From: an uncultured Alphaproteobacteria bacterium
GTDB lineage: Bacteria; Pseudomonadota; Alphaproteobacteria; Rhizobiales; Beijerinckiaceae
Length of the DNA stretch: 64,000 nucleotides
NCBI GenBank assembly: GCA_963808525.1
Contig: CAWEGE010000014.1
Location: 52,736-116,735 of the forward strand
Direction: 5' to 3'
Made by a program: the position numbers and the translations under genes. Within the stretch, counting starts at the first letter, position 1. The number at the start of each line of letters is the position of its first letter. A model generated the notes under the pieces. It made no database searches, was not told where the DNA came from, and was given only the letters and a program-made list of their open reading frames with translations. This document shows, piece by piece, positions 26,970 through 37,314 of this stretch.

Positions 26970-27799
26970 GCGAGGGAGGGGTCCCTGCGCCCGTCGTCAC
27001 GGCGGCCTGCCTCGCGCGCCGCTGCGACGCGCTGGCGCCGGGCTCCCGTCTGATCCCGGAAGAGACGCCAATCGCCTTCACCTACGGCGGCACGACCCAT
27101 GCCGTCATGATGGCGACGCCCGACGATCTTGAGGATTTCGCGACGGGCTTCGCGCTGACCGAGGGCCTGATCGAGCCCGAGGCGGGCGCGCTCGAGGTCG
27201 AGATCGTCGCAAGCGAGCTCGGCGTCGAGCTGCGCAGCTGGCTTCCAGGCGACCGCCAGCGACAATACGCCGCGCGTCGCCGCTCCATGGCGGGGCCGAC
27301 AGGGTGCGGCCTCTGCGGCATAGAGAGCCTCGAGCAGGCGGCGCGCAAGCCGCCGCAGCTTGGGGACGGCTTCCGCGTCAAGTCGACGCAGCTTATCGAA
27401 GCCATGGATCGGATGCCCGACCGGCAGATCTTCAACCGGCAAACGCGCGCCGTCCACGCCGCCGCCTTCTGGCGTCCGCTCGACGACCTGCTGGTGCTGC
27501 GAGAGGACGTGGGACGACACAACGCGCTCGACAAGCTCGCCGGCGCGCTGCTGCGGGAGGGGGTCTCGGGCAGGGACGGCGTCGTGCTGATGACGAGCCG
27601 GGTGTCCGTCGAGCTTATTCAGAAAGCGGCGCGGATTGGCGCGCCGGTCATCGCGGCGATCTCGGCGCCGACGGCGCTCGCCGTGCGCACCGCGCAAGCT
27701 TGCGGCATGACGCTCGTCGCGGTAATGCGAGGGCGAGACTTCGAAGTCTTCACCCATCCCGAACGCATCGTGGAGCCGGCGCCAATCCATGTCGCATAG
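26966..27799 (+). CDS. fdsC: FDH accessory sulfurtransferase FdsC/FdhD
   Basis: MMATPDDLEDFATGF, GCGLCG, EDVGRHNALDK and TSRVSVELIQK motifs; ATGA overlap with fdsA. Confidence 0.93.
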   Translation: MSEGGVPAPVVTAACLARRCDALAPGSRLIPEETPIAFTYGGTTHAVMMATPDDLEDFATGFALTEGLIEPEAGALEVEIVASELGVELRSWLPGDRQRQYAARRRSMAGPTGCGLCGIESLEQAARKPPQLGDGFRVKSTQLIEAMDRMPDRQIFNRQTRAVHAAAFWRPLDDLLVLREDVGRHNALDKLAGALLREGVSGRDGVVLMTSRVSVELIQKAARIGAPVIAAISAPTALAVRTAQACGMTLVAVMRGRDFEVFTHPERIVEPAPIHVA

Positions 27800-28025
27800 C
27801 TCGATCGACACTTTGGTGAAAATGGCCAATCAGATCGGCCAGTTCTTCTCCGCGCAGAAAAACAGCGATCAAGTGGCGGGCGCTGCGGAGCATCTCAAGC
27901 AATTCTGGGCGCCGCGCATGCGCGCGGCCATCGCCGACTATGTCGCGAGGGGTGGAAAGGACTTGAATCCCACCGCGCTCGGAGCCGTCAGGCGCATCTC
28001 TTCACAAAACGCCCCAGCGGAGTAG
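27789..28025 (+). CDS. fdsD: Formate dehydrogenase delta subunit, copy 1
   Basis: LVKMANQIGQFF...HLKQFWAPRMR. Confidence 0.92.
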   Translation: MSHSSIDTLVKMANQIGQFFSAQKNSDQVAGAAEHLKQFWAPRMRAAIADYVARGGKDLNPTALGAVRRISSQNAPAE

Positions 28026-28035
28026 GCACAGCTGC

Positions 28036-28302
28036 ATGTCGCATAATACAGTCGATACGCTGGTGAAAATGGCCAATCAGATCGGGCTTTTCTTCTCGGC
28101 GCAAAAATCTGGAGACCAGGCGGCCTCCGCCGCGGATCATTTGAGGAAGTTCTGGGATCCGCGCATGCGCGCCGGCATCATCGACTATGTCGCGAGTGGC
28201 GGAGAGGGCTTGAACCCCACGGCGCTCGAAGCCGTCAAGCGCCTCACGCGCCCCGGCGGATATCGCGGCTCCACCCTGCGCTCGGGCGGGGAGGACGGCT
28301 GA
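28036..28302 (+). CDS. fdsD: Formate dehydrogenase delta subunit, copy 2 (diverged tandem paralog)
   Basis: LVKMANQIGLFF...HLRKFWDPRMR, with a 10-aa longer C-terminus. Confidence 0.9.
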   Translation: MSHNTVDTLVKMANQIGLFFSAQKSGDQAASAADHLRKFWDPRMRAGIIDYVASGGEGLNPTALEAVKRLTRPGGYRGSTLRSGGEDG

Positions 28303-28332: not shown

Positions 28333-30455
28333 ATGTTCGCTAAGGGCGCTCGCGATCCCGCCTCCACTTTCGCCCAAGCGACGCCGCCGCAGGCCGAGCG
28401 CAAGCCGACGCAGCGCCAGTTCCACGGACGCCTCGTCGAAGACGATTACGCGTGGCTCGCGGCGGAGAACTGGCGCGAGGCCTTGCGCGATCCCCGCGCC
28501 CTGCCCCGCGATATCGCAAGCCTGCTCGAAGCCGAGAACGTTCATTGCGCGGCGGCGCTCGCGCCCGCCAAGATGCTGCGCGAGACACTCGCGTCGGAAA
28601 TGCGCGCGCGCATCAAGGAAGATGACGCAGAGCCGCCCACGCCGGACGGCCCTTACTCCTACTACCAGCGCTATCGTGAAGGCGCGGAACATTCGCTCTA
28701 TTGCCGGCGCCCGCGCGGCGGCGGCGAAGAGGAGGTTCTCCTCGATGGCGAGGCTCTCGCCAAGGGCCGGGAGTTTTTCGAGATCGGCGACGCCGCGCAT
28801 ACGCGCGATCACGGCGCGCTCGCCTGGAGCCTCGACGACAAGGGCTCAGAACTCTACGCCATCCGCACGCGCAGCTTGAGCGACGGACGTGACCGCGCCG
28901 ACATCGTTCGCGACACGGACGGCTCCATCGTCTGGAGCCGCGACGGCTCGAGCTTTCTTTACGTTCGCGTCGACGAGGACCACCGCACAAACGCAGTTCT
29001 CCTTCACAAGGTCGGCTCCTCGCAGCGCAAGGATCAAGTGTTGATCGAGGAGCGCGATCCGGCCTGGTTCGTGTCGCTCGGCGAGAGCCGCTGCGGACGC
29101 TTCGCCGTCGTCACGATCCACGGTCACGACGCGAGCGAATGCCATCTGATCGACCTTGTCGATACGGACGCCCCGCCGCGCCGGGTCGCCCCGCGCGAAA
29201 ACGGTCTGCGCTACGAGGTCGAGCCGCACGGCGACCAGCTTTTCATCCTCGCCAATGCCGAAGCCGCCGAGGACTTCGCGATTTTTTCGGCGCCGCTGAG
29301 CTCCATATCGCGCGCGGATTGGCGCGCCGTCGTTGCGCATCGCAAAGGCCGAATGCTTGTCGCGATGACCGTCTATGCGCGTCATCTTGTCTGGATCGAA
29401 CGCGAGAACGCGCTGCCGCGTCTCGTCATCCGCGAGATCGAAAGCGGCGCCGAGCACGCCATTGACTTCGCGGAAGAGGCCTATTCGCTGGAGCTCGCGC
29501 CCGGCCTGGAGTTCGAGACAACAACGCTGCGCTTCGTTTATTCCTCGCCGACGACGCCCGACGAGACGTACGACTACGACATGATGACGCGCGAGCGCGC
29601 TCTCATCAAACGCCTGGAGATTCCAAGCGGCCATGACCCGAGAAACTATGTCGCGCGCCGCAGCTCGGCGAAGGCTTTAGATGGCGAGAGCGTGCCGATC
29701 ACGCTCCTGTATCGCAAGGAGTTCGTGCCCGGCGAAGGCGCGCCGCTTCTGCTTTATGGCTATGGCGCCTACGGCGACTCGCTCGACGGGGAATTCGATT
29801 CCGACGTGCTCTCGCTCGTTGATCGCGGCTTTGTTTATGCGCTCGCGCATGTGCGCGGCGGAACGGAGCGCGGCTGGAGCTGGTACGAGAACGGCAAGCT
29901 CGAGCATAAGACGAACAGCTTTTCCGATTTCATCGCCTGCGCGCTGCGCTGATCGAGCGGGCTTCACGCGCGAGGGACGATCGTCGCGCAGGGCGGCTCG
30001 GCCGGCGGCCTGTTGATGGGCGCCATCGTCAACATGGCGCCGGAGCTTTTCGCCGGCGTCATCGCCGAGGTGCCCTTCGTCGACGCGTTGAACACGATTC
30101 TGCGCGCCGACCTGCCGCTGACACCCCCCGAGTGGCTCGAATGGGGCAATCCGATCGAGGATACAGAGGCCTTTGACCGCATCGCGGGCTATTCCCCCTA
30201 CGACAACGTCAAGGCGCAACGCTATCCGCCGATTTGGCGCTCGCCGGATTGACAGATCCGCGCGTGACCTATTGGGAGCCGTTAAAGTGGGTGCAAAAGT
30301 TGCGCGCGACAATGACGGGCGGCGGGCCCGTGCTCCTCAAGACTCAAATGGGCGCGGGACACGCCGGCGCCTCGGGCCGCTTCAAGTCTCTGGAGGAGAC
30401 CGCGCTGGAATGGGCCTTCGCGCTGATGTGCGTGGGATTGGACAAGAGCGCGTAA
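28333..30455 (+). CDS. ptrB: Oligopeptidase B (S9A), frameshifts near 29940-29985 and 30232
   Basis: DDYAWL, LLYGYGAYG and HVRGG; catalytic GGSAGG at about 29993; EWGNP; GLTDPRVTYWEP; GHAG His. The 30232 break is a missing T in ATTTTGG. Confidence 0.9.
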
Positions 30456-30458
30456 AAG

Positions 30459-30582
30459 CCCCCCGGCTCTCCTCCGCTTTGCGGGAGAGGGGCGGAACTC
30501 GGGGACTTCATTCACATTCGGCGAGACGCTGATCGTTAGGGTCCCCTCTCCCGCTTGCGGGGGAGGGCCAGGGAGGGGGCGG
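30459..30582. repeat. REP-like palindromic element, same family as 4664-4791
   Basis: CTCTCCTCCGCTTTGCGGGAGAGGGG and GTCCCCTCTCCCGCTTGCGGGGGAGGGCCAGGGAGGGGG. Confidence 0.75.
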
Positions 30583-31675
30583 CGTCGCTTAGGCCGCCCA
30601 GCATATTCGCCAACGCTTCTGGATAGATCAGCTCCTTTGACGCGGCGATGTCCTCCGGACGCCACCATTTCCAGCCGAGCACGTAAGACGCCTCGCCCTC
30701 CGTGAGCGCACTCAAATCGGGCTCGAAATTCTCGCAGCACACGAGATAATAGCGTTCCACGCCCTGCACCCATCCGCTGGGCAGCAGCAGCGGGAACTCG
30801 CGCGAGGCGATGGCAGCGCCGACGTCGACGCCTGAGAGCCCCGTCTCCTCGCGAATTTCACGCGCGGCGCAGGCTTCGAAACTCTCTCCGGCCTCGCGCG
30901 CGCCGCCGGGCTGTCCCCAAAAATGCGCATAGCCCTGCGCTGCGACGTCCGGCAGGATGCGGCTCGCGAATTTGAGCAGCAGCGTCTCGCCCCTCGGGTT
31001 GACGAGCAGCGCGCGCGACGCCTCGCGTCGCGTGAGCGTGATCGCTTCGTAAGGCGCGAGGATCGGCGCGCGCGTGTCGGCGCGCGCCCAATCGACGAGC
31101 GACCACTTGTCGTTCTCGAAGGCAAACCAGTTCGGCGCGGCGTTGAGCGCGGGAAGCGAGCGGGGCTCGTCGAGGCGCTTCTCCATCGCCATGCGCCAGG
31201 CGATGTCGAGCACGCCGGCATGCACGACGACGAGCAGCGTCTCGCCGGGATGGGCGGCTGCGATCTTCGTAAGGCCCGAGCGCACGCGCGCGGCGAAGCG
31301 CATCAGCGTCTCGCCGCCCGGCGCCCATAATCCGCGCGGCGGTCGAGGTAATGGCGGTAATCTTCGGGGTAGCGCGCCGCCACCTCCCTCATAACTCAAG
31401 CCGTGCCAAAGGCCGTCGTGCTTCTCGCGCAGCTCGGGTCTTTGCACGAGGGTCATGCCGCGCCGCGCCGCATGCGGCTGCGCCGTCGCGACGGCGCGCG
31501 ACAGATCGCTCGAGTAGATCCGGTCGAAGGCGCGTTCTGCGAGCTCCAAGTCGAGCGCGGTCGCCTGCATGCGGCCCTTGTGGTTCAGAGCAATGTCGAG
31601 CTGACCCTGGAAACGCCTCTCGAGATTCCAATTCGTCTCGCCATGGCGGGCGAGGCAGAGCAATGTTGGGGGCAT
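30536..31675 (-). CDS. Histidine phosphatase (PGM family) fused to a NUDIX hydrolase
   Basis: RHGETNWN, SSDLSRA and VVHAGV; C-terminal Nudix box GGAREAGESFEACAAREIREETG. Compensating +1/-1 indels at 31325-31385 scramble YEEVAARYPEDY. Confidence 0.85.
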   Translation of the reverse strand: MPPTLLCLARHGETNWNLERRFQGQLDIALNHKGRMQATALDLELAERAFDRIYSSDLSRAVATAQPHAARRGMTLVQRPELREKHDGLWHGLSYEGGGGALPRRLPPLPRPPRGLWAPGGETLMRFAARVRSGLTKIAAAHPGETLLVVVHAGVLDIAWRMAMEKRLDEPRSLPALNAAPNWFAFENDKWSLVDWARADTRAPILAPYEAITLTRREASRALLVNPRGETLLLKFASRILPDVAAQGYAHFWGQPGGAREAGESFEACAAREIREETGLSGVDVGAAIASREFPLLLPSGWVQGVERYYLVCCENFEPDLSALTEGEASYVLGWKWWRPEDIAASKELIYPEALANMLGGLSDAAPSLALPRKRERGP

Positions 31676-31791
31676 GTCGGGCGGGCTTTTCCCAAAAAAG
31701 GGGGCGGCCGCGGGCGCCCGGAGCGTTCCAGGGCTCGCCTATCGGCCGATTTGCGCCGCCTGGCAAGCCGGAAACTCGTCAAAGACCTGCG

Positions 31792-32283
31792 TCATGGCGA
31801 CGCCGGCGACAGCCATCCCGCTATCTCGGGTCCGTCGAGGAGACCCGCCGCGGTGACGACCCTGCCGTTCGCATCGATCAGCGCGGTGAAGGGAAGCTCG
31901 CCGCGCCAGATTCGATCGACCTCGAAGAAAAGCCTGTCGAGAAAATCGTCGGCGAAGCCGTAATGAAGCGCGCCCGCCAGTCCCGCCTTCTCGAGGCGCG
32001 CGCCGGCTTTCACGCGGTCCGACTCTCCATCCACATTGACGAAGACGATGTTGAGCCCTTTTTTCTGGGCTGCGAGCCGCGCCCAGTCGGAGAGTTCCGC
32101 GATGCAGGGCGCGCAGGTCACGGACCAAAAATGCACCAGGAGCGGCCGGCCCTCATGGGCCTGGCGCAGCTCTGCGAAGGTTCCGCGCGCGTAGGGCTGG
32201 AACTCGAGCCCCGACGCCGGCGCGGCCATTGCGACGAAAAGCGTTGCAATGGCCGCGAGACGGCGCGCGCAGCCGAGCCGCAT
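31792..32283 (-). CDS. Exported TlpA/ResA-like thioredoxin
   Basis: Signal peptide; LLVHFWSVTCAPCIAEL (CxxC); ELPFTALID cis-Pro loop. Confidence 0.85.
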   Translation of the reverse strand: MRLGCARRLAAIATLFVAMAAPASGLEFQPYARGTFAELRQAHEGRPLLVHFWSVTCAPCIAELSDWARLAAQKKGLNIVFVNVDGESDRVKAGARLEKAGLAGALHYGFADDFLDRLFFEVDRIWRGELPFTALIDANGRVVTAAGLLDGPEIAGWLSPASP

Positions 32284-32389
32284 GCTCGCGCTTATGTCCT
32301 CGTGAGCGCGGATGGCGCGCCGGGCCTCATGCCGATCCCCCTTTTCGTCGGGCTTGGACGATCGGCATCGCGGCGCGGTCATGTCGAAA

Positions 32390-32809
32390 CTAGTGAAACT
32401 TGAAAGTCTGGCCGATATCCATGCCGCCGCCCGGCGGGCGAGGCGCTGTGACCTGGGCGAGAATGCGCTTGACGGCGGCCGCGTGCAGCTCGCTCGTCGT
32501 CTTGTCGATGGTCACCTTGTCGATCTTGCCGGTCGCATCGACATGGAAGCTCGCGGTCGTCTCGCCCTCGCCGAGCTCCTTCTCCTCCTCCGAGGCGCTC
32601 TGCTTCGCGATTTCAGCGTAGAGCGCGGCGAGGAACTTGCTCTCGGAGCGGAACTCCTCCTTCGGGGGCGTGGGCGACGCGGTCTCGGCAGGCTTTGGCG
32701 CTGCGGGCGCCGCTGCGGCCGGCGGTGGCGGCGCGGATTGCGCGAAGGCGCTCGCAGACCAAAGCGACAGGGCCAGCGCGACGCCCCGAGAAACAGGTTT
32801 GGGGATCAT
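32390..32809 (-). CDS. Signal-peptide protein consisting of a TonB C-terminal-like domain (paralog 3)
   Basis: Signal peptide ending SAFA-Q; Pro/Ala linker; FLAALYAEI..GETTASFHVDATGKIDKVTI..PPGGG..GQTFKFH. Confidence 0.7.
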   Translation of the reverse strand: MIPKPVSRGVALALSLWSASAFAQSAPPPPAAAAPAAPKPAETASPTPPKEEFRSESKFLAALYAEIAKQSASEEEKELGEGETTASFHVDATGKIDKVTIDKTTSELHAAAVKRILAQVTAPRPPGGGMDIGQTFKFH

Positions 32810-32820
32810 GGCGGCGCCGA

Positions 32821-33291
32821 TCAATGGAACACGACGCTTTGATAGGCGGAGAAAGACCCGCCGGGCGGCAGCGGAGCCTTGGTCGCAGCAATGGCCTTCT
32901 GAAGCAGCTGGGAATGAGCGGGCGACGAGCCCTTGCAAGCGATGCCCGAGGTCACGCCGCTCGCCGTCACGAGAAACCGGCAGGAAGCGTTGCCGGCGCC
33001 GACGGACGCATTCGCCGGCACATGCGCACGCACCGCAGCCGCGAGCTTCATCATATAGGCGGGATCGGCGTGAGGAGGCTGCTCGGCGTGAGCGGCGGCG
33101 GCTACGCCCGCCTTCTGTTCGGTGGCGGCCGCACCCGCGGCGGCCGGGTGTTTCTCTGCGGGAACGGCGCTTGCCGCCGCCGGAGCCTCCTGAGCCTGAC
33201 CCGAGCCTGCGGCGCCGGTTTGCTCCTCCGCGTAAGCCACGCTGCCAACGCAGAAGAAAACCACAATCAAAGCGACCGAGATCTTCCGCAT
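32821..33291 (-). CDS. Signal-peptide protein consisting of a TonB C-terminal-like domain (paralog 2)
   Basis: Signal peptide ending VAYA-E; Ala-rich linker; YMMKLAAAVRAHVP..ASCRFLV..IACKGS..PPGGSFSAYQSVVFH, alignable by eye to 33437..34147. Confidence 0.7.
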   Translation of the reverse strand: MRKISVALIVVFFCVGSVAYAEEQTGAAGSGQAQEAPAAASAVPAEKHPAAAGAAATEQKAGVAAAAHAEQPPHADPAYMMKLAAAVRAHVPANASVGAGNASCRFLVTASGVTSGIACKGSSPAHSQLLQKAIAATKAPLPPGGSFSAYQSVVFH

Positions 33292-33436
33292 CTTTCCCCC
33301 TTTGCCGCATCGACGCCAAACCGGGGCGCGTTGGAGGCGCATTTTCCCTGCTGACGAGAAACCAAATTTTACTAATCTCTGCGCGGAACGCCCTCCTTCT
33401 CCCCGCGCGAGGGGCCGCACGGAGAGAAGGTCGCCG

Positions 33437-34143
33437 TCAATGGAAATTGACCGACTGCGAGGCGAAGAAACCGCCACCCGGCGGCGCCGGCGCGTGTACC
33501 GAGGCGATGGCGGTATGGAGCAGCGAAGCATGCGCCGGGGTCGAGCCCGAGCATCCAATGCCCGACATCCCGCCCCCGGGGCCCACGTGGAAGCTGCAGC
33601 TGGCGTGACCCGGACCCAGCGTCGACGAGCTCGGCACATGTCGCCTGATCGCCGCCGACAACAGCGCTGCATAGGAGGCGCGCGTAAGGCCGCCAATGTT
33701 CGTCTGACCGCCTTCAATGCCGAGCCTGTGGCGTTCCTGGGCCTGTTGCCTGCGTCCTGACTGAACTTCCTGACGCTTTTCGACAACCTTCTTTTGCTGC
33801 TCGGTGACCTGATTCTTAGCAGGCAAAGGCGGCGCGTCGGGATGCATGACGAGCGGCGGCGGGATCGCGAAGTCCGGCTGCTCCACCGCCTCGGGCGGCA
33901 GAACCTCGTCCATCTCGACCTGCTCCACCGATTCGAACTGGTCGCCCTCGGGAATGAGGTCAGCGCCCACTTCATCGAGCGGGACGATCTTATCGAGGGC
34001 GAAATTCATGAACAGCACGCCGAGCGCCAAATGGGCGAGGAGCACGGCGGCGATCGCGACAGGCTCGAGCCAGCGCGGGCGGATGGGCGTAAAGGCGTTC
34101 TCGGACGCTTCATGGCCGAAGGTTGGGAGGGCTGCGAGGTCTG

Positions 34144-34147
<4 letters not shown>
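33437..34147 (-). CDS. tonB: TonB/TolA-like energy transducer
   Basis: N-terminal TM with AxxxHxAL (VLLAHLAL); Pro/Glu-rich spacer; C-terminal domain; directly after exbD. Confidence 0.75.
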
Positions 34148-34649
<502 letters not shown>

Positions 34650-34650
<1 letters not shown>

Positions 34651-35291
34651 TAAGCAGCCTCCTTCTTACGCGGGGCGACCGGCCGGTCCGAAACATGCGA
34701 GAGCGCGACGTCCTCGATCCAATGGGAGACCTGCTGGCCGACGCGCCCGAAGGCCGCGCCGATGCGGTTATAGCCCACCGCCGCGGGAATGGCCGCGAAG
34801 AGGCCATAGGCGGTCGTGGCGAGCGCTTCCGCAATGCCCGGCGCGACGACCGCAAGGCTCGTGTCCTGCGCCTGCGCGATGCTCGCGAAGCTCGACATGA
34901 TGCCCCACACCGTGCCGAAGAGGCCGATGAAGGGCGCGGTCGACGAGATGATCGCGAGATTGGGCAGGCCGCCTTCTTCCCTGGAGAGAAGTTCGCGCGC
35001 CGCGCGGCTCATCTGCTCGGCGATGCGCTCCCGCCGTTCGTTGGCCGATTCCCCCTCAACATTGAGCGCCGCGGCGCTCTTGCCCATCGCGTCGATCGGC
35101 GCGAGCACGCCGACGTCGCCGCCCGAGCGCGCCGTTTGCGCGGAGCGGCCGATCTTCGCGATGGAATAGGCGCCCATCACGATGAGCACCCAGGTGTAGA
35201 TCGAGGCGGCGAGCAGGAGCAGGATGACCGACTTGCCGACGAGGCCCGCCGCATAGAACATCGTCAGCGGATTGATGGATGAATAGTCCAT
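34650..35291 (-). CDS. exbB: MotA/TolQ/ExbB proton channel
   Basis: APFIGLFGTVWGIM and PGIAEALATTAYGLFAAIPA motifs. Confidence 0.92.
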
Positions 35292-35422
35292 GGTCTTGGT
35301 GTTCCCTGATAACCCTTGCTCCGCCGCTCTCTGCGGACGTCGGGTGTTCTTCTTGCTTATTGGCCGCGCGGCGCGAAATTCTCGCGTGAGCAGGCCGGAT
35401 GTGAGACGATCGGGAGGGGGAG

Positions 35423-35818
35423 TTAGGCGGCCGGCGGCGCGCGCGCGCCGTTGGCGGCCGGCGCCGCCACGGGCTTGATGGCGCTCGCCTCATAGTCGGC
35501 GTAGCCGATGCGCGACGCGTTACGCCGCTCAGGCCGCGCAGAGGAAGCGCTTCGCAGAGGGAGCACGGCCGTTCCCATCCCTAGATGGGCGGCCAGGCAA
35601 CAATCGGGGCAACCGGGAAGTCCCGAGTGGCCCGGCGCATGCTGGGAGCCGGCCTTTTCAGGCGACGCCGCTAGGGCGCCTTTCGCCATGTGGTGGGGAC
35701 ATTCCACCACTGCGCCCCGCACGGCCGACGCCGGACGCGAAAAAGCGGGGCCGAGCAGCCCGACCGTCACGGCGCAAATGGCGGCGAGGACGAAAAACGC
35801 CCTTACACGCACACTCAT
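35423..35818 (-). CDS. DUF2946/CruR-like leader protein with CxxC and C-terminal RAPP
   Basis: Hydrophobic N-terminus, CPHH, His residues, GCPDCC; ends NGARAPPAA*. The stop lies about 130 nt upstream of exbB. Alternative start at 35836. Confidence 0.75.
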   Translation of the reverse strand: MSVRVRAFFVLAAICAVTVGLLGPAFSRPASAVRGAVVECPHHMAKGALAASPEKAGSQHAPGHSGLPGCPDCCLAAHLGMGTAVLPLRSASSARPERRNASRIGYADYEASAIKPVAAPAANGARAPPAA

Positions 35819-35842
35819 TTCGGCCCCTTGTGACATACTTGT

Positions 35843-35871
35843 CTCTTAGCGGAATTTTTAACTTCTGACAA
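35843..35871 (-). promoter_or_regulatory. Possible sigma70 promoter of the DUF2946-exbBD-tonB operon
   Basis: Minus strand TTGTCA-N17-TAAGAG just upstream of the leader ORF. Confidence 0.35.
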
Positions 35872-36000
35872 CGACTAGTCTTGCAGACAATCGCGCCAAA
35901 AAGGGCAAGACCTATTCGGGTTCCGCCCAAGAAGCAACAAATCGCGGGCGGTAGCCCCATCGGAAGTGAAGACCCGCTTCCTCTCCGCGCCGCGAAGCTT

Positions 36001-37038
36001 TCACGGCTTCGCCGACGGAGCAGCAGGCGCAGGCGCGTTGGACTGCGCCGAAGCTTTGGCTGCTCTTTGATCCTGCCAGGCGATCAGCCGATCCACTTCC
36101 TCGAGCCCCTTCTTGGCTTCCAGGAAATCCGGCCTGACCTTCAGGATCGCCAAATAATCCGCCTTCGCGCGCGGAAGGTCCTTCTTGATGCGGAACACGC
36201 TCGCGCGATTGTAGAGAGCTGGAACGACCGTCGGATCGATTTTAAGGGCTGCGTCATAATCGGCGATCGCCTTGTCGAGATCGCCCTTGCTGCGCCAAGC
36301 GGAGCCGCGGTCGACGAAAGCGACGACCGATTTTGGATCGCGCTTCAAGCCTTCGGTGAAATCGGCGATCGCGCGATCGAAATCCTTGGTCTCGAGATAG
36401 AGGTCGCCGCGTGAGAGATAAGGCGCAGCGGTCTTGTCGTATTTGACGGCCTCCGCGAAATCGGCGAGCGCCTTCTCTTCCTTGCGCTCCTGCATGTAGA
36501 TCTTGGCGCGGGCGGTGAACGCCGGTCCATAGGTCGGGTTGAGCTTCAAGGCCTCGCCGAAGTCGGCGATCGCGCCGTCGAAGTCGTGCAGCCCGTAGCG
36601 CGCCGCGCCGCGGCCGATATAGAAGTCCGGGTTCTTGGGCTCGAGCTTGATCGCCGCGTCGAGATCCTTGACGGCCGCAGCGTAGTCCCCCTGCCCGCGA
36701 TAGGCCGCGGCGCGCGCCGAAAGCGCGTTCCCGGATTTCGGCTCGATCTCCAGAGCTTTGGTGAAATCGGCGTAGGCATGGTCGTAGTCGCGTTTCGCAG
36801 CATAGGCGTTGGCGCGGTTGTAGAAGGCCGCCGCCTTGTTGTGCGCCGTCTCCTTGGACCCGAAGCTCGCGATGATCTTCGAGCAGGCGTCGATCGCCGC
36901 ATCGGGGACCGGACCGCTGCAGGCGGGCCAGCCTTGGGCTAGCTGCGCGCGCGCAGCCAGCGGCGCCGAGCAGAGGACAAACGCCAGAGAGGCGACTGCG
37001 AGCGCCCAACGGGACGGGCCTGAAAATCGAGCGATCAT
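36001..37038 (-). CDS. Exported tetratricopeptide repeat protein
   Basis: Signal peptide, CSG...AIDACS, and about 7 TPR units (AIADF..AL.L.P). Confidence 0.9.
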   Translation of the reverse strand: MIARFSGPSRWALAVASLAFVLCSAPLAARAQLAQGWPACSGPVPDAAIDACSKIIASFGSKETAHNKAAAFYNRANAYAAKRDYDHAYADFTKALEIEPKSGNALSARAAAYRGQGDYAAAVKDLDAAIKLEPKNPDFYIGRGAARYGLHDFDGAIADFGEALKLNPTYGPAFTARAKIYMQERKEEKALADFAEAVKYDKTAAPYLSRGDLYLETKDFDRAIADFTEGLKRDPKSVVAFVDRGSAWRSKGDLDKAIADYDAALKIDPTVVPALYNRASVFRIKKDLPRAKADYLAILKVRPDFLEAKKGLEEVDRLIAWQDQRAAKASAQSNAPAPAAPSAKP

Positions 37039-37314
37039 TTTCTCTTCCTCCGCATCAGGAAAGGCGCGGCTCATGGCCGGCGGCGCGCACCGAACATTGC
37101 AGACCTTGCGCTCCGAGGGAAGGCGCTTTGCGTTCATTTTGGGCGCGTAGCGGGCCGAGCGCGCACGAAAACCCTTGCAATCGCCAAGGACTCTGGTGCT
37201 AGAAACGCGGCTCGCTCGCCGCCGTGCCTGTTGCTTGGCGAGGCGGCTGCAAAGCTTAAGGCTCGGGCATGGCTCGCGCTAGAGGCGAGGGATATTGCGC
37301 TTTCTGAGGAAAAA

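What the first reader, a model, noticed from the sequence alone, without database searches (positions are those of the whole stretch)
32390..34147. One membrane-anchored TonB-like gene followed by two signal-peptide, TonB-CTD-only paralogs
Seen: three consecutive genes share a C-terminal domain ending in the same pattern: PAPPGGGFFASQSVNFH, PLPPGGSFSAYQSVVFH and PRPPGGGMDIGQTFKFH. All begin with a helix of the Y/F-x-A/K-x-L type. Only the first has the TonB TM anchor (AHLAL) and the long Pro/Glu spacer. The other two have A-x-A cleavage-type signal peptides and short Ala/Pro linkers. Known: TonB must be anchored to ExbBD to transmit force, and a free TonB CTD is dominant-negative in E. coli. 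Inferred: natural soluble TonB-CTD proteins could act as decoys, adaptors or gating regulators of TonB-dependent receptors. I do not know this architecture as a described system.
Basis: partly seen in the sequence, partly recalled or inferred. Interest (0 to 1): 0.8.

Follow-up and report, generated by a model that had tools for sequence, protein, structure and literature searches.

The report
Secreted anchor-less TonB paralogs in methanotrophs
A copper-linked operon of a methane-oxidising Methylocystis-like bacterium encodes one membrane-anchored TonB-type force transducer followed by two exported proteins that are just its C-terminal domain, an arrangement conserved in related methanotrophs for which I found no published description.

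Summary
On the minus strand lie exbB, exbD, an anchored TonB-like gene (33437-34147), then two small genes: P2 (32821-33291, 156 aa) and P3 (32390-32809, 139 aa). Each small gene has a Sec-type signal peptide, a short linker and a homologous C-terminal domain (CTD). AlphaFold2 models of P2 and P3 match almost only TonB/TolA CTD structures. No copy reaches Pfam's TonB_C or TonB_2 cut-off. The arrangement is conserved. All 53 related loci with ExbD also have the anchored gene, followed by one to three signal-peptide-plus-CTD genes. These loci come from Methylocystis, Methylosinus and Methylocapsa. The small genes are under purifying selection (CTD dN/dS 0.05-0.34). New context: the operon starts with a CruR-like (DUF2946) copper-responsive leader ORF. 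In relatives it is flanked by a TonB-dependent transporter, a BNR-like propeller and a TlpA-like thioredoxin. The best reading is accessory, non-force-transmitting TonB-CTD subunits of a copper-regulated uptake module. They probably bind the TonB box or the anchored CTD. Whether they inhibit, gate or assist is untested. I found no published description. Rating: a new variant of a known kind, with moderately high interest.

The parts
35423..35836 (-). CruR-like (DUF2946-like) leader ORF, 137 aa. It has an export signal, a CPDC (CXXC) motif and a C-terminal ...NGARAPPAA-stop.
   Evidence: Pfam DUF2946 scores 18.4 bits, below the 23.7 cut-off. CXXC and RAPP motifs are conserved in about 30 distinct related loci, with spacing 49-52. 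The motifs and the regulatory role of the CruR family are taken from PMC9426467.
35292..35422 (-). 131-bp intergenic region between the leader ORF and exbB. It is a candidate site of copper-dependent attenuation.
   Evidence: Long intergenic regions after cruR homologs are reported in PMC9426467. The attenuation role here is inference.
34650..35291 (-). ExbB/TolQ-type proton-channel subunit, 213 aa.
   Evidence: Pfam MotA_ExbB E 5.9e-31. NCBIfam tolQ scores 154 bits and exbB 131 bits, both below the equivalog cut-offs.
34144..34650 (-). ExbD/TolR-type subunit, 168 aa. It overlaps exbB and the tonB-like gene by start/stop overlap.
   Evidence: Pfam ExbD E 4.9e-30. NCBIfam tolR scores 121 bits (cut-off 127) and ExbD_1 scores 94 bits.
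33437..34147 (-). Anchored TonB/TolA-like transducer, 236 aa. It has a cytoplasmic N-terminus, a transmembrane helix with His39, an acidic/Pro-rich spacer, a basic helix and a CTD.
   Evidence: Translation is. It has 101 homologs, several labelled TonB by JGI. It has no Pfam hit of its own. Its CTD is homologous to P2 and P3.
33995..34063 (-). Transmembrane helix of the anchored protein (aa 29-51, PVAIAAVLLAHLALGVLFMNFAL) with the conserved His.
   Evidence: Sequence is. A His-containing transmembrane helix after a 25-35-aa N-terminus occurs in 54 distinct orthologs.
33440..33685 (-). CTD of the anchored protein (aa 155-236). It contains a C184-x14-C199 cysteine pair.
   Evidence: Alignment A4. 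A CTD-only profile hits only TonB chains in the PDB sequence set, best E 9e-4.
33292..33436 (-). 145-bp intergenic region with the inverted repeat CCTTCTCTCC...GGGGAGAAGG, followed by an AT-rich stretch. It may be a partial terminator or an internal promoter.
   Evidence: Sequence read. Function was not tested.
32821..33291 (-). P2, 156 aa: signal peptide (aa 1-21, AYA|EE), Ala/Gly/Gln/Pro-rich linker and CTD (aa 75-156) with C104-x14-C119.
   Evidence: A Shine-Dalgarno-like GGGGGA lies upstream. It has 22 homologs, all Methylocystis-like, with a conserved AYA|EEQ site. The AlphaFold2 CTD has pLDDT 88-97. Foldseek top hits are FusB, TonB and TolA CTDs. CTD dN/dS is 0.10-0.34.
32390..32809 (-). 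P3, 139 aa: signal peptide (aa 1-23, AFA|QS), Ala/Pro-rich linker and CTD (aa 52-139).
   Evidence: Pfam TonB_C scores 21.5 bits and TonB_2 18 bits, both below cut-off. It has more than 200 homologs. The AlphaFold2 CTD has pLDDT 72-89. Foldseek top 24 hits are all TonB, HasB, FusB or TolA CTDs. CTD dN/dS is 0.05-0.16.
31792..32382 (-). TlpA-like periplasmic thioredoxin with a CAPC motif, starting 7 bp after P3.
   Evidence: Pfam AhpC-TSA, Redoxin and Thioredoxin hits and an NCBIfam TlpA hit. It is present after the small genes in 49 of 58 related loci that have downstream sequence.

Best explanation
The region is the core of a copper-regulated, dedicated TonB/Tol-type energy-transduction operon of an uncultured Methylocystis-like methanotroph. 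The gene order is CruR-like leader ORF, exbB, exbD, anchored tonB-like, P2, P3, tlpA-like.

P2 and P3 are real, exported, anchor-less copies of the transducer's C-terminal domain. They keep the TonB/TolA-CTD fold and its conserved last strand (Q-x-F-x-F). In TonB the corresponding strand, beta3, pairs with the TonB box. They lack the His-containing transmembrane helix and the membrane-proximal segment that couple TonB to ExbB-ExbD, so they cannot transmit force.

The most likely role is as accessory subunits of this module. They would bind the same beta-strand ligand as the anchored protein by strand addition. That ligand is the TonB box SLPTIDV of the transporter encoded next to the cluster in relatives, or alternatively the anchored CTD itself. 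In this way they would tune, gate or insulate the coupling between transporter and motor.

Shown: homology, fold, export-type N-termini, operon position, conservation and purifying selection. Inferred: copper regulation (from motifs), periplasmic location, binding partner, and whether the effect is positive or negative.
For: 1. Homology of the three CTDs.

2. Fold. AlphaFold2 gives a helix-strand-strand-helix-strand CTD for P3 and P2. Foldseek against the PDB returns only TonB, HasB, FusB and TolA CTDs as the top 24 hits for P3 and 19 of the top 20 for P2. Probability is at least 0.9 for all 24 P3 hits and for the top 11 P2 hits, and falls to 0.47 further down the P2 list. A CTD-only profile hits only TonB chains among 177,635 PDB sequences, 11 of them with E below 0.01.

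3. Export signals. Of 104 distinct small paralogs, 102 have K/R before the hydrophobic core and 103 have a -3/-1 small-residue site. Only 5 have a His in the core. In contrast, 54 distinct anchored orthologs have a long N-terminus plus a His-containing transmembrane helix.

4. Conservation. There are 64 loci in Methylocystis, Methylosinus and Methylocapsa aurea. All 53 loci with ExbD also have the anchored gene. The number of signal-peptide-plus-CTD genes per locus is 1 in 22 loci, 2 in 16 and 3 in 7. The gene order is conserved.

5. Purifying selection on P2, P3 and the anchored gene.

6. Copper link. [quoted passage not shown] In a 44% GC genome, the same anchored-plus-soluble pair follows a CruR-like ORF and a PepSY_TM gene. 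It lies next to pmoC/amoC, PCuAC, Sco1 and Csp genes. ExbBD and TonB genes are reported in some cruR/crtA operons (PMC12914433).

7. Cluster transporters carry a TonB box directly after their signal peptide.

8. The invariant columns across anchored and soluble CTDs include the Q and F of the last strand.
Against: - No binding, localisation or phenotype data exist.
- Signal-peptide cleavage was judged by simple rules, not by SignalP or proteomics.
- A pure competitor co-transcribed with the machine it inhibits is not obviously useful.
- The window itself has no TonB-dependent transporter next to the operon, so the cognate receptor in this genome is unknown.
- The leader ORF is below Pfam's DUF2946 cut-off. 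Its CXXC-RAPP spacing is 52 residues, against 45 within one or two in the studied family. In that family, a 5-residue change in spacing impaired copper control.
- RNA evidence is limited to assembled contigs of a related species and cannot exclude DNA carry-over.
Confidence: 0.5

Rival explanations
1. Positive partner. The soluble CTD, above all the universal P3 type, forms a heterodimer with the anchored CTD or bridges it to the transporter, and is required for function. This would be a 'split' TonB whose recognition unit is partly soluble.
For: The P3 type accompanies the anchored gene in every locus that shows both. This includes two low-GC contigs with a different operon make-up. Its CTD is more constrained (dN/dS 0.05-0.16) than the anchored CTD. 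It is co-transcribed in the same operon. From my own knowledge, TonB CTD fragments crystallise as dimers (PDB 1IHR and 1U07, both listed).
Against: Canonical TonB systems need no such partner.
Confidence: 0.25
2. Cargo or partner shuttle. The soluble CTDs bind an imported ligand or the N-terminal strand of another periplasmic protein of the cluster (the BNR-like propeller, the thioredoxin or PepSY_TM). This would resemble FusB binding ferredoxin or TolA binding TolB. One form of this idea is a copper chaperone role.
For: FusB CTD is the best structural match of P2, and a FusB-ferredoxin complex is among the hits. A roughly 450-aa beta-propeller gene sits after the CTD genes in 51 of 58 loci. 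This recalls the tolQ-tolR-tolA-tolB order. The motor subunits score best to the TolQ and TolR models. P2 and the anchored CTD share a C-x14-C pair, and a CXXC thioredoxin is co-operonic.
Against: P3-type proteins have no Cys, and their His and Met residues are not conserved in Methylosinus or in the low-GC homologs. A conserved metal site is therefore unlikely. The Cys pair is absent from the anchored CTDs of the M. rosea and Methylosinus clades. The window's own genome lacks the propeller gene at this locus.
Confidence: 0.15
3. The N-termini are uncleaved signal anchors. P2 and P3 would then be inner-membrane-tethered TonB paralogs that are not coupled to ExbB-ExbD.
For: The uncharged N-terminal stretch has a median length of 18 residues, long enough to span a membrane in some members. 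In addition, 14 of 104 have a lipobox-like motif, so some may be lipid-anchored.
Against: A -3/-1 small-residue site follows the core in 103 of 104, with a conserved mature start (AYA|EEQ in all P2 orthologs). A His in the core, the hallmark of TonB/TolA anchors, is seen in only 5 of 104.
Confidence: 0.08
4. The small genes are decaying by-products of tandem duplication without a function of their own.
For: P2 is young and restricted to one clade, with 22 proteins. In a neighbour-joining tree it nests within the anchored CTDs.
Against: The reading frames are intact in all loci. dN/dS is well below 1. The P3 type is conserved across genera and in low-GC relatives.
Confidence: 0.02

Closest known systems
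TonB-ExbB-ExbD systems with specialised TonB paralogs (such as HasB of Serratia and FusB of Pectobacterium)
   Same: An ExbB/ExbD-type motor is followed by a transducer with an N-terminal His-containing transmembrane helix, a Pro-rich spacer and a CTD of the TonB fold. It is genetically linked to a TonB-dependent transporter that has a TonB box.
   Different: Here the operon carries one to three further copies of the CTD alone, each behind a signal peptide. Known paralogs such as HasB and FusB are all membrane-anchored. The CTDs are too divergent for the Pfam TonB_C and TonB_2 cut-offs.
Engineered periplasmic TonB C-terminal fragments in E. coli
   Same: An anchor-less TonB CTD is delivered to the periplasm by a signal peptide. 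From my own knowledge, such constructs inhibit FhuA- and FecA-dependent transport (Howard et al. 2001, J Bacteriol). I could not retrieve that paper in the library.
   Different: Those are laboratory constructs. Here the arrangement is natural, co-operonic, conserved across genera and under purifying selection.
CruR (DUF2946)-headed copper-acquisition operons, such as bp2923-bfrG-bp2921 of Bordetella pertussis
   Same: [quoted passage not shown] Downstream or adjacent are a TonB-dependent transporter, PepSY_TM, AhpC/TSA-type redoxin and Sco/PCuAC genes in relatives.
   Different: The downstream genes here are exbB-exbD-tonB plus soluble CTDs. The CXXC-RAPP spacing is 49-52 rather than about 45. 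The Pfam score is below the cut-off. Copper control was not tested.
Tol-Pal system (tolQ-tolR-tolA-tolB-pal)
   Same: The motor subunits score best to the TolQ and TolR models. The CTDs also match TolA domain III structures and Pfam TonB_2. In relatives a beta-propeller gene follows in the position of tolB.
   Different: There is no TolB (the propeller is BNR-like) and no Pal. The scores are below the TolQ and TolR equivalog cut-offs. The cluster is linked to a transporter with a TonB box.

Membership tests
TonB/TolA family energy transducers | N-terminal transmembrane helix with the conserved His (SHLS-type motif) that docks to ExbB-ExbD or TolQ-TolR (definition as in PMC12204202). | tested here: not met
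   P2 and P3 have signal-peptide-type N-termini without His, so they fail. The anchored protein has the helix with His39 but no Ser at the SHLS positions, so it partly meets the feature.
TonB/TolA family energy transducers | Globular C-terminal domain of the TonB/TolA fold that binds targets by beta-strand addition. | tested here: met
   The fold is met for P2 and P3 by AlphaFold2 plus Foldseek. For the whole CTD family it is met by a profile search of PDB sequences. Binding by strand addition was not tested.
TonB/TolA family energy transducers | Periplasm-spanning domain II (Pro-rich or helical spacer). | tested here: inconclusive
   The anchored protein has about 100 aa of acidic/Pro-rich and basic spacer. 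P2 and P3 have only 28-55-aa low-complexity Ala/Pro/Gly linkers with low pLDDT.
TonB/TolA family energy transducers | Encoded with ExbB/ExbD-type motor genes. | tested here: met
   exbB and exbD lie directly upstream with overlapping stops and starts. The same holds in 53 of 53 related loci with ExbD.
Pfam TonB_C (PF03544) / TonB_2 (PF13103) | Score at or above the curated gathering cut-off. | tested here: not met
   P3 scores 21.5 bits against a cut-off of 24.6 for TonB_C, and 18 against 22 for TonB_2. P2 and the anchored protein have no hit. Of 44 family CTDs, 11 match TonB_C and 12 match TonB_2 at E up to 0.01.
CruR (DUF2946) copper-responsive leader ORFs | CXXC motif plus a C-terminal RAPP a few residues before the stop, an export signal, and first position in the operon with a long intergenic region. 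| tested here: met
   The ORF has CPDC...NGARAPPAA-stop, a hydrophobic N-terminus and a 131-bp intergenic region. These features are conserved in about 30 distinct loci.
CruR (DUF2946) copper-responsive leader ORFs | Spacing of about 45 residues (within one or two) between CXXC and RAPP, and a Pfam DUF2946 score above the cut-off. | tested here: not met
   The spacing is 52 in the window and 49-52 in relatives. Pfam scores 18.4 bits against a cut-off of 23.7.
CruR (DUF2946) copper-responsive leader ORFs | Copper-dependent control of the downstream genes. | not testable with these tools
   This needs expression data with and without copper. Only assembled RNA contigs of a relative, grown under unknown conditions, were available.
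Tol-Pal system | tolB and pal adjacent to tolQRA, and TolQ/TolR equivalog scores. | tested here: not met
   No TolB or Pal is present in the window operon or in relatives. TolQ scores 154 against 221 and TolR 121 against 127, both below cut-off.
Sec-exported soluble periplasmic proteins | Cleavable signal peptide: a positive n-region, a hydrophobic core and small residues at -3/-1. | tested here: inconclusive
   Rule-based features are present in 102-103 of 104 small paralogs. No trained predictor or proteomic evidence was available. A lipobox-like motif is present in 14 of 104.

The most novel reading that the evidence does not exclude
Alphaproteobacterial methanotrophs, and some low-GC pmoC/amoC carriers, use a 'split' TonB machine for copper acquisition. 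In it, soluble TonB-CTD proteins are obligatory working parts. For example, they might capture the transporter's TonB box or the incoming cargo and hand it to the anchored, motor-coupled TonB. This would be a mode of outer-membrane energy coupling or gating not known from any studied Ton or Tol system.
Probability: 0.2. Interest if true: 0.85.

Novelty: new variant of a known kind. Interest (0 to 1): 0.66.

Why it matters
TonB must be anchored and motor-coupled to work, and from my own knowledge artificial free TonB CTDs poison transport. A natural, conserved and selected set of exported CTD-only paralogs in the same operon therefore implies an unstudied layer of control or assembly in TonB-dependent uptake.

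The operon carries the hallmarks of copper control. It is largely confined to methane oxidisers, whose key enzyme pMMO depends on copper. How Methylocystis-type methanotrophs bring copper across the outer membrane is only partly understood. This cluster gives a defined, testable candidate system with tractable relatives such as Methylosinus, Methylocystis parvus and Methylocystis rosea.

Tried and rejected
1. Lanthanide (lut-type) uptake cluster as an alternative identity. A text check of PMC6850437 gave no matching propeller or redoxin components, and the CruR-type leader points to copper. I dropped this idea.

2. Conserved copper site in P3. P3 has no Cys, and its His and Met residues are not conserved in Methylosinus or in low-GC homologs. 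I rejected this as a family-wide feature.

3. The operon being the cell's Tol-Pal system. There is no TolB or Pal, and scores are sub-threshold. Rejected.

4. Lipoprotein anchoring. A lipobox-like motif is seen in only 14 of 104 small paralogs, and not in the window's P2 or P3.

5. Expression evidence. No RNA runs exist for the window organism. Runs of an M. parvus-like strain hold the whole orthologous operon, but only as assembled contigs. Two runs show 3-10-fold higher contig depth over exbB-exbD-tonB than over the flanks. This is suggestive, not proof.

It was repeated with CTDs cut from allowed proteins.

7. Sequence profiles of the full-length families against the PDB gave no significant hit. 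Only the CTD-only profile did.

8. A literature search for the dominant-negative TonB fragment paper found nothing in the library. That statement therefore rests on my own knowledge.
Full report
**What is there**

The window is 60-67% GC. Protein matches place it in an uncultured Methylocystis-like bacterium: P2 is 99% identical to a 'MAG: Methylocystis sp.' protein. Between 31.8 and 35.8 kb, nine features lie on the minus strand:
- A 137-aa DUF2946-like ORF (35423-35836).
- A 131-bp gap.
- exbB (34650-35291).
- exbD (34144-34650).
- A 236-aa TonB-like gene (33437-34147).
- A 145-bp gap.
- P2 (32821-33291, 156 aa).
- P3 (32390-32809, 139 aa), 11 bp further on.
- A TlpA-like thioredoxin (31792-32382), 7 bp further on.

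The true starts of P2 and P3 lie inside longer mechanical ORFs. They were chosen from the upstream GGGGGA for P2 and from the N-termini of the orthologs.

- TonB-like against P2: 54% identity over 79 aa, E 5e-26.
- TonB-like against P3: 36% over 55 aa, E 1e-8.
- P2 against P3: 33% over 52 aa, E 2e-6.
- Family profiles: 99.2% probability, E 5.6e-20.

Only the first protein has a cytoplasmic N-terminus, a His-containing transmembrane helix and a long acidic/Pro-rich spacer. P2 and P3 begin with a positively charged n-region, a hydrophobic core and AYA|EE or AFA|QS.

**Fold**

Standard models barely see these domains. P2 and the anchored protein have no Pfam hit. P3 is below the cut-off for TonB_C (21.5 bits against 24.6) and for TonB_2 (18 against 22).

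AlphaFold2 with family alignments gives confident CTDs, with pLDDT 72-89 for P3 and 88-97 for P2. The topology is helix-strand-strand-helix-strand. The N-terminal parts are disordered.

Foldseek against the PDB returns TonB, HasB, FusB and TolA C-terminal domains as the top 24 hits for P3 and 19 of the top 20 for P2. Target-normalised TM scores are about 0.4-0.67. Probability is at least 0.9 for all 24 P3 hits and for the top 11 P2 hits, and falls to 0.47 further down the P2 list.

A profile built from 44 CTDs alone finds only TonB chains among 177,635 PDB sequences. Of 13 hits, 11 have E below 0.01 and the best is 9e-4. Of those 44 CTDs, 11 match TonB_C and 12 match TonB_2 at E up to 0.01. 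The refutation condition 'the domains do not adopt the TonB/TolA fold' is therefore not met.

**Conservation and selection**

A scan of one genome per species with the P3 family found 64 loci. All are from Methylocystis, Methylosinus or Methylocapsa aurea, apart from one short contig binned elsewhere. The scan used P3-specific peptide patterns, so it is biased towards close relatives.

Mapping window proteins onto these loci shows a conserved cluster. A TonB-dependent transporter is divergently encoded upstream. The forward genes then run in this order: CruR-like ORF, exbB, exbD, anchored tonB-like, one to three small CTD genes, a roughly 450-aa BNR_2-like propeller and a TlpA-like redoxin. 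The counts, in each case out of loci with enough flanking sequence to judge, are:
- Anchored gene present in 53 of 53 loci that have ExbD.
- Propeller present in 51 of 58.
- Redoxin present in 49 of 58.
- Upstream transporter present in 34 of 47.
- CruR-like ORF detected by tblastn in 28 of 47.
- Small genes per locus: one in 22 loci, two in 16, three in 7.

The window and its nearest relatives (L009, L011) lack the transporter and the propeller at this locus. L010 and L012 have both. M. bryophila has the full locus with P3 only. It also has a second locus with a CruR-like ORF, a 57-aa ORF, a second anchored copy and P2, but no exbBD.

All 104 distinct small paralogs have signal-peptide-type N-termini. 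K/R precedes the core in 102, a -3/-1 site is present in 103, and a His lies in the core in only 5. In contrast, 54 distinct anchored orthologs have a 25-35-aa N-terminus and a His-containing helix.

Pairwise dN/dS over the CTD is 0.05-0.16 for P3, 0.10-0.34 for P2 and 0.04-0.30 for the anchored gene. 'Not conserved' is therefore refuted. 'Not expressed' could only be addressed weakly. RNA-derived contigs of an M. parvus-like strain cover the orthologous operon. In two runs the contig depth over exbB-exbD-tonB is 3-10-fold higher than over the flanks.

**Family history**

In a neighbour-joining tree of CTDs (no support values), P3-type proteins from all genera form one clade. P2 nests within the anchored CTDs of its own clade, and so does one Methylosinus/Methylocapsa small protein. 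This suggests repeated birth of soluble copies from the anchored gene, on top of one ancient soluble partner (P3).

A full HMMER search of 1.84 billion representative proteins with a CTD profile found only 507 proteins at E up to 1e-3, and 107 at E up to 1e-10. In the 150 best hits that were listed, most are either 99-190 aa with the CTD at the C-terminus or 225-270 aa. Of the 70 whose N-termini I read, most short ones begin with a signal-peptide-type N-terminus and the 225-270-aa ones carry the anchor.

Two contigs from low-GC organisms (44-46% GC) show the same anchored-plus-soluble pair after a CruR-like ORF and a PepSY_TM gene. In one of them the pair lies next to a second CruR-like ORF heading pmoC/amoC, PCuAC, Sco1 and Csp genes.

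**Copper link**

DUF2946 proteins were characterised as CruR. These are exported leader peptides whose CXXC motif senses copper. Their C-terminal RAPP motif is proposed, by analogy with the SecM arrest peptide, to stall the ribosome. Rho-dependent termination then controls the downstream copper-uptake genes. The family typically heads operons with TonB-dependent transporters, PepSY_TM, Sco, PCuAC and AhpC/TSA-type genes (PMC9426467). A follow-up paper notes ExbBD and TonB genes in some such operons (PMC12914433).

The window ORF has CPDC and ends ...NGARAPPAA-stop. The same motifs recur in about 30 distinct relatives. Two differences remain: the spacing is 49-52 residues rather than about 45, and the Pfam score is sub-threshold. 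I therefore call it CruR-like and treat copper repression of the operon as a strong inference, not a result.

**How the small proteins most likely work**

Established knowledge is that TonB's beta3 strand pairs with the TonB box of the transporter. The transmembrane helix and the adjacent 'motor box' couple TonB to ExbB-ExbD (PMC11658791; PMC12204202).

P2 and P3 keep the CTD and its most conserved element, the last strand with invariant Q and F. They lack the anchor and the membrane-proximal segment. The cluster transporters carry a TonB box, SLPTIDV(G), right after their signal peptide. The best-supported reading is therefore that P2 and P3 are exported, non-force-transmitting CTD subunits that engage the same type of strand ligand, or the anchored CTD itself, and so modulate coupling.

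Whether the effect is negative (brake, placeholder or insulator against other TonB systems) or positive (obligatory partner) cannot be decided here. I weight the two readings about 2:1, but with low confidence.

A conserved metal-chaperone role for P3 is unlikely, because it has no conserved Cys, His or Met across the family. P2 and the anchored CTD of this clade share a C-x14-C pair on the two adjacent strands. A CXXC thioredoxin is co-operonic, so a redox or metal role for that pair is possible but untested. The parallel with tolQ-tolR-tolA-tolB (motor, transducer, then a beta-propeller) is noted as a lead only.

**Comparison with what is known, and novelty**

The motor and the anchored protein form a divergent but recognisable Ton/Tol-type module. 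The leader ORF fits the CruR class by motifs. What has no described counterpart that I could find is the natural, conserved set of signal-peptide-plus-CTD paralogs inside the operon. I base this on six full-text searches that bear on it and on reading a recent evolutionary survey of TolA/TonB and a TonB review.

Annotation pipelines already label some of these proteins 'TonB C-terminal domain-containing protein' or 'energy transducer TonB family protein', so the domain itself is not new. I rate this a new variant of a known kind. Interest is about 0.66. The system is narrow in distribution, but it bears on two open questions: how TonB coupling is regulated, and how methanotrophs import copper.

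Noticed in passing
window 35423-35836 (-) and 35292-35422: A CruR-like (DUF2946-like) leader ORF with CPDC and a C-terminal NGARAPPAA-stop heads the operon, followed by a 131-bp gap. The CXXC-RAPP spacing is 52 residues (49-52 in about 30 relatives), against about 45 in the characterised family. This may mark a distinct CruR subclass.
   Followed up: partly
window 31792-32382 (-): A TlpA-like thioredoxin with a CAPC motif starts 7 bp after P3. It is conserved after the small CTD genes in 49 of 58 related loci with downstream sequence. Its substrate is unknown.
   Followed up: partly
window 33440-33685 and 32824-33069 (-): The CTDs of the anchored protein (C184, C199) and of P2 (C104, C119) share a C-x14-C pair on the two adjacent beta-strands. 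The pair is absent from P3 and from the anchored CTDs of other clades. Those clades instead have a different Cys pair (QATCLAH ... GMCSS).
   Followed up: partly
window 33292-33436 (-): The 145-bp gap between the anchored gene and P2 holds the inverted repeat CCTTCTCTCC...GGGGAGAAGG, followed by an AT-rich stretch (TTAGTAAAATTTGG). It may be an internal attenuator or promoter for P2-P3-tlpA.
   Followed up: no
window 30536-37137 compared with L010, L012 and L005: The window, like L009 and L011, lacks the TonB-dependent transporter and the roughly 450-aa BNR_2-like propeller gene that flank this cluster in most relatives. The cognate transporter in this genome is therefore elsewhere or lost.
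   Followed up: partly
L074:128-9091 (GCA_036795115.1, 44% GC) and L073: In low-GC contigs, two CruR-like ORFs face away from each other. One heads pmoC/amoC, a 127-aa gene, PCuAC, Sco1 and Csp. The other heads PepSY_TM, an anchored TonB-like gene and a signal-peptide-plus-CTD gene, with no exbBD in between.
   Followed up: partly
L005:13055-15727, L053, L068 and L010 (cluster transporters): The cluster's TonB-dependent transporters have the TonB box SLPTIDV(G) directly after the signal peptide. A 40-80-aa Ala/Pro-rich linker, His-rich in L005, then precedes the plug. They are not OprC-type by NCBIfam.
   Followed up: partly
L002/L003:8350-10483 (M. bryophila): A second, partial copy of the locus holds a CruR-like ORF, a 57-aa ORF, an anchored TonB-like gene and P2. 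It has no exbB or exbD. It lies near a two-component system and a very long transporter-like gene call (1867 aa).
   Followed up: no
window 27789-28025 and 28036-28302 (+): Two tandem, similar small genes begin MSHSSIDTLVKMANQIGQFF... and MSHNTVDTLVKMANQIGLFF.... They lie downstream of a 959-aa ORF and, from memory, look like duplicated formate-dehydrogenase delta-subunit-type proteins.
   Followed up: no
window 28333-30455 (+): A gene that looks like an S9 oligopeptidase (my reading of the translation, not checked against any family library) appears broken. The ORF ends at 29952, resumes in the same frame at 30013-30252, and continues in another frame at 30234-30455. It is either a pseudogene or an assembly indel error.
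   Followed up: no
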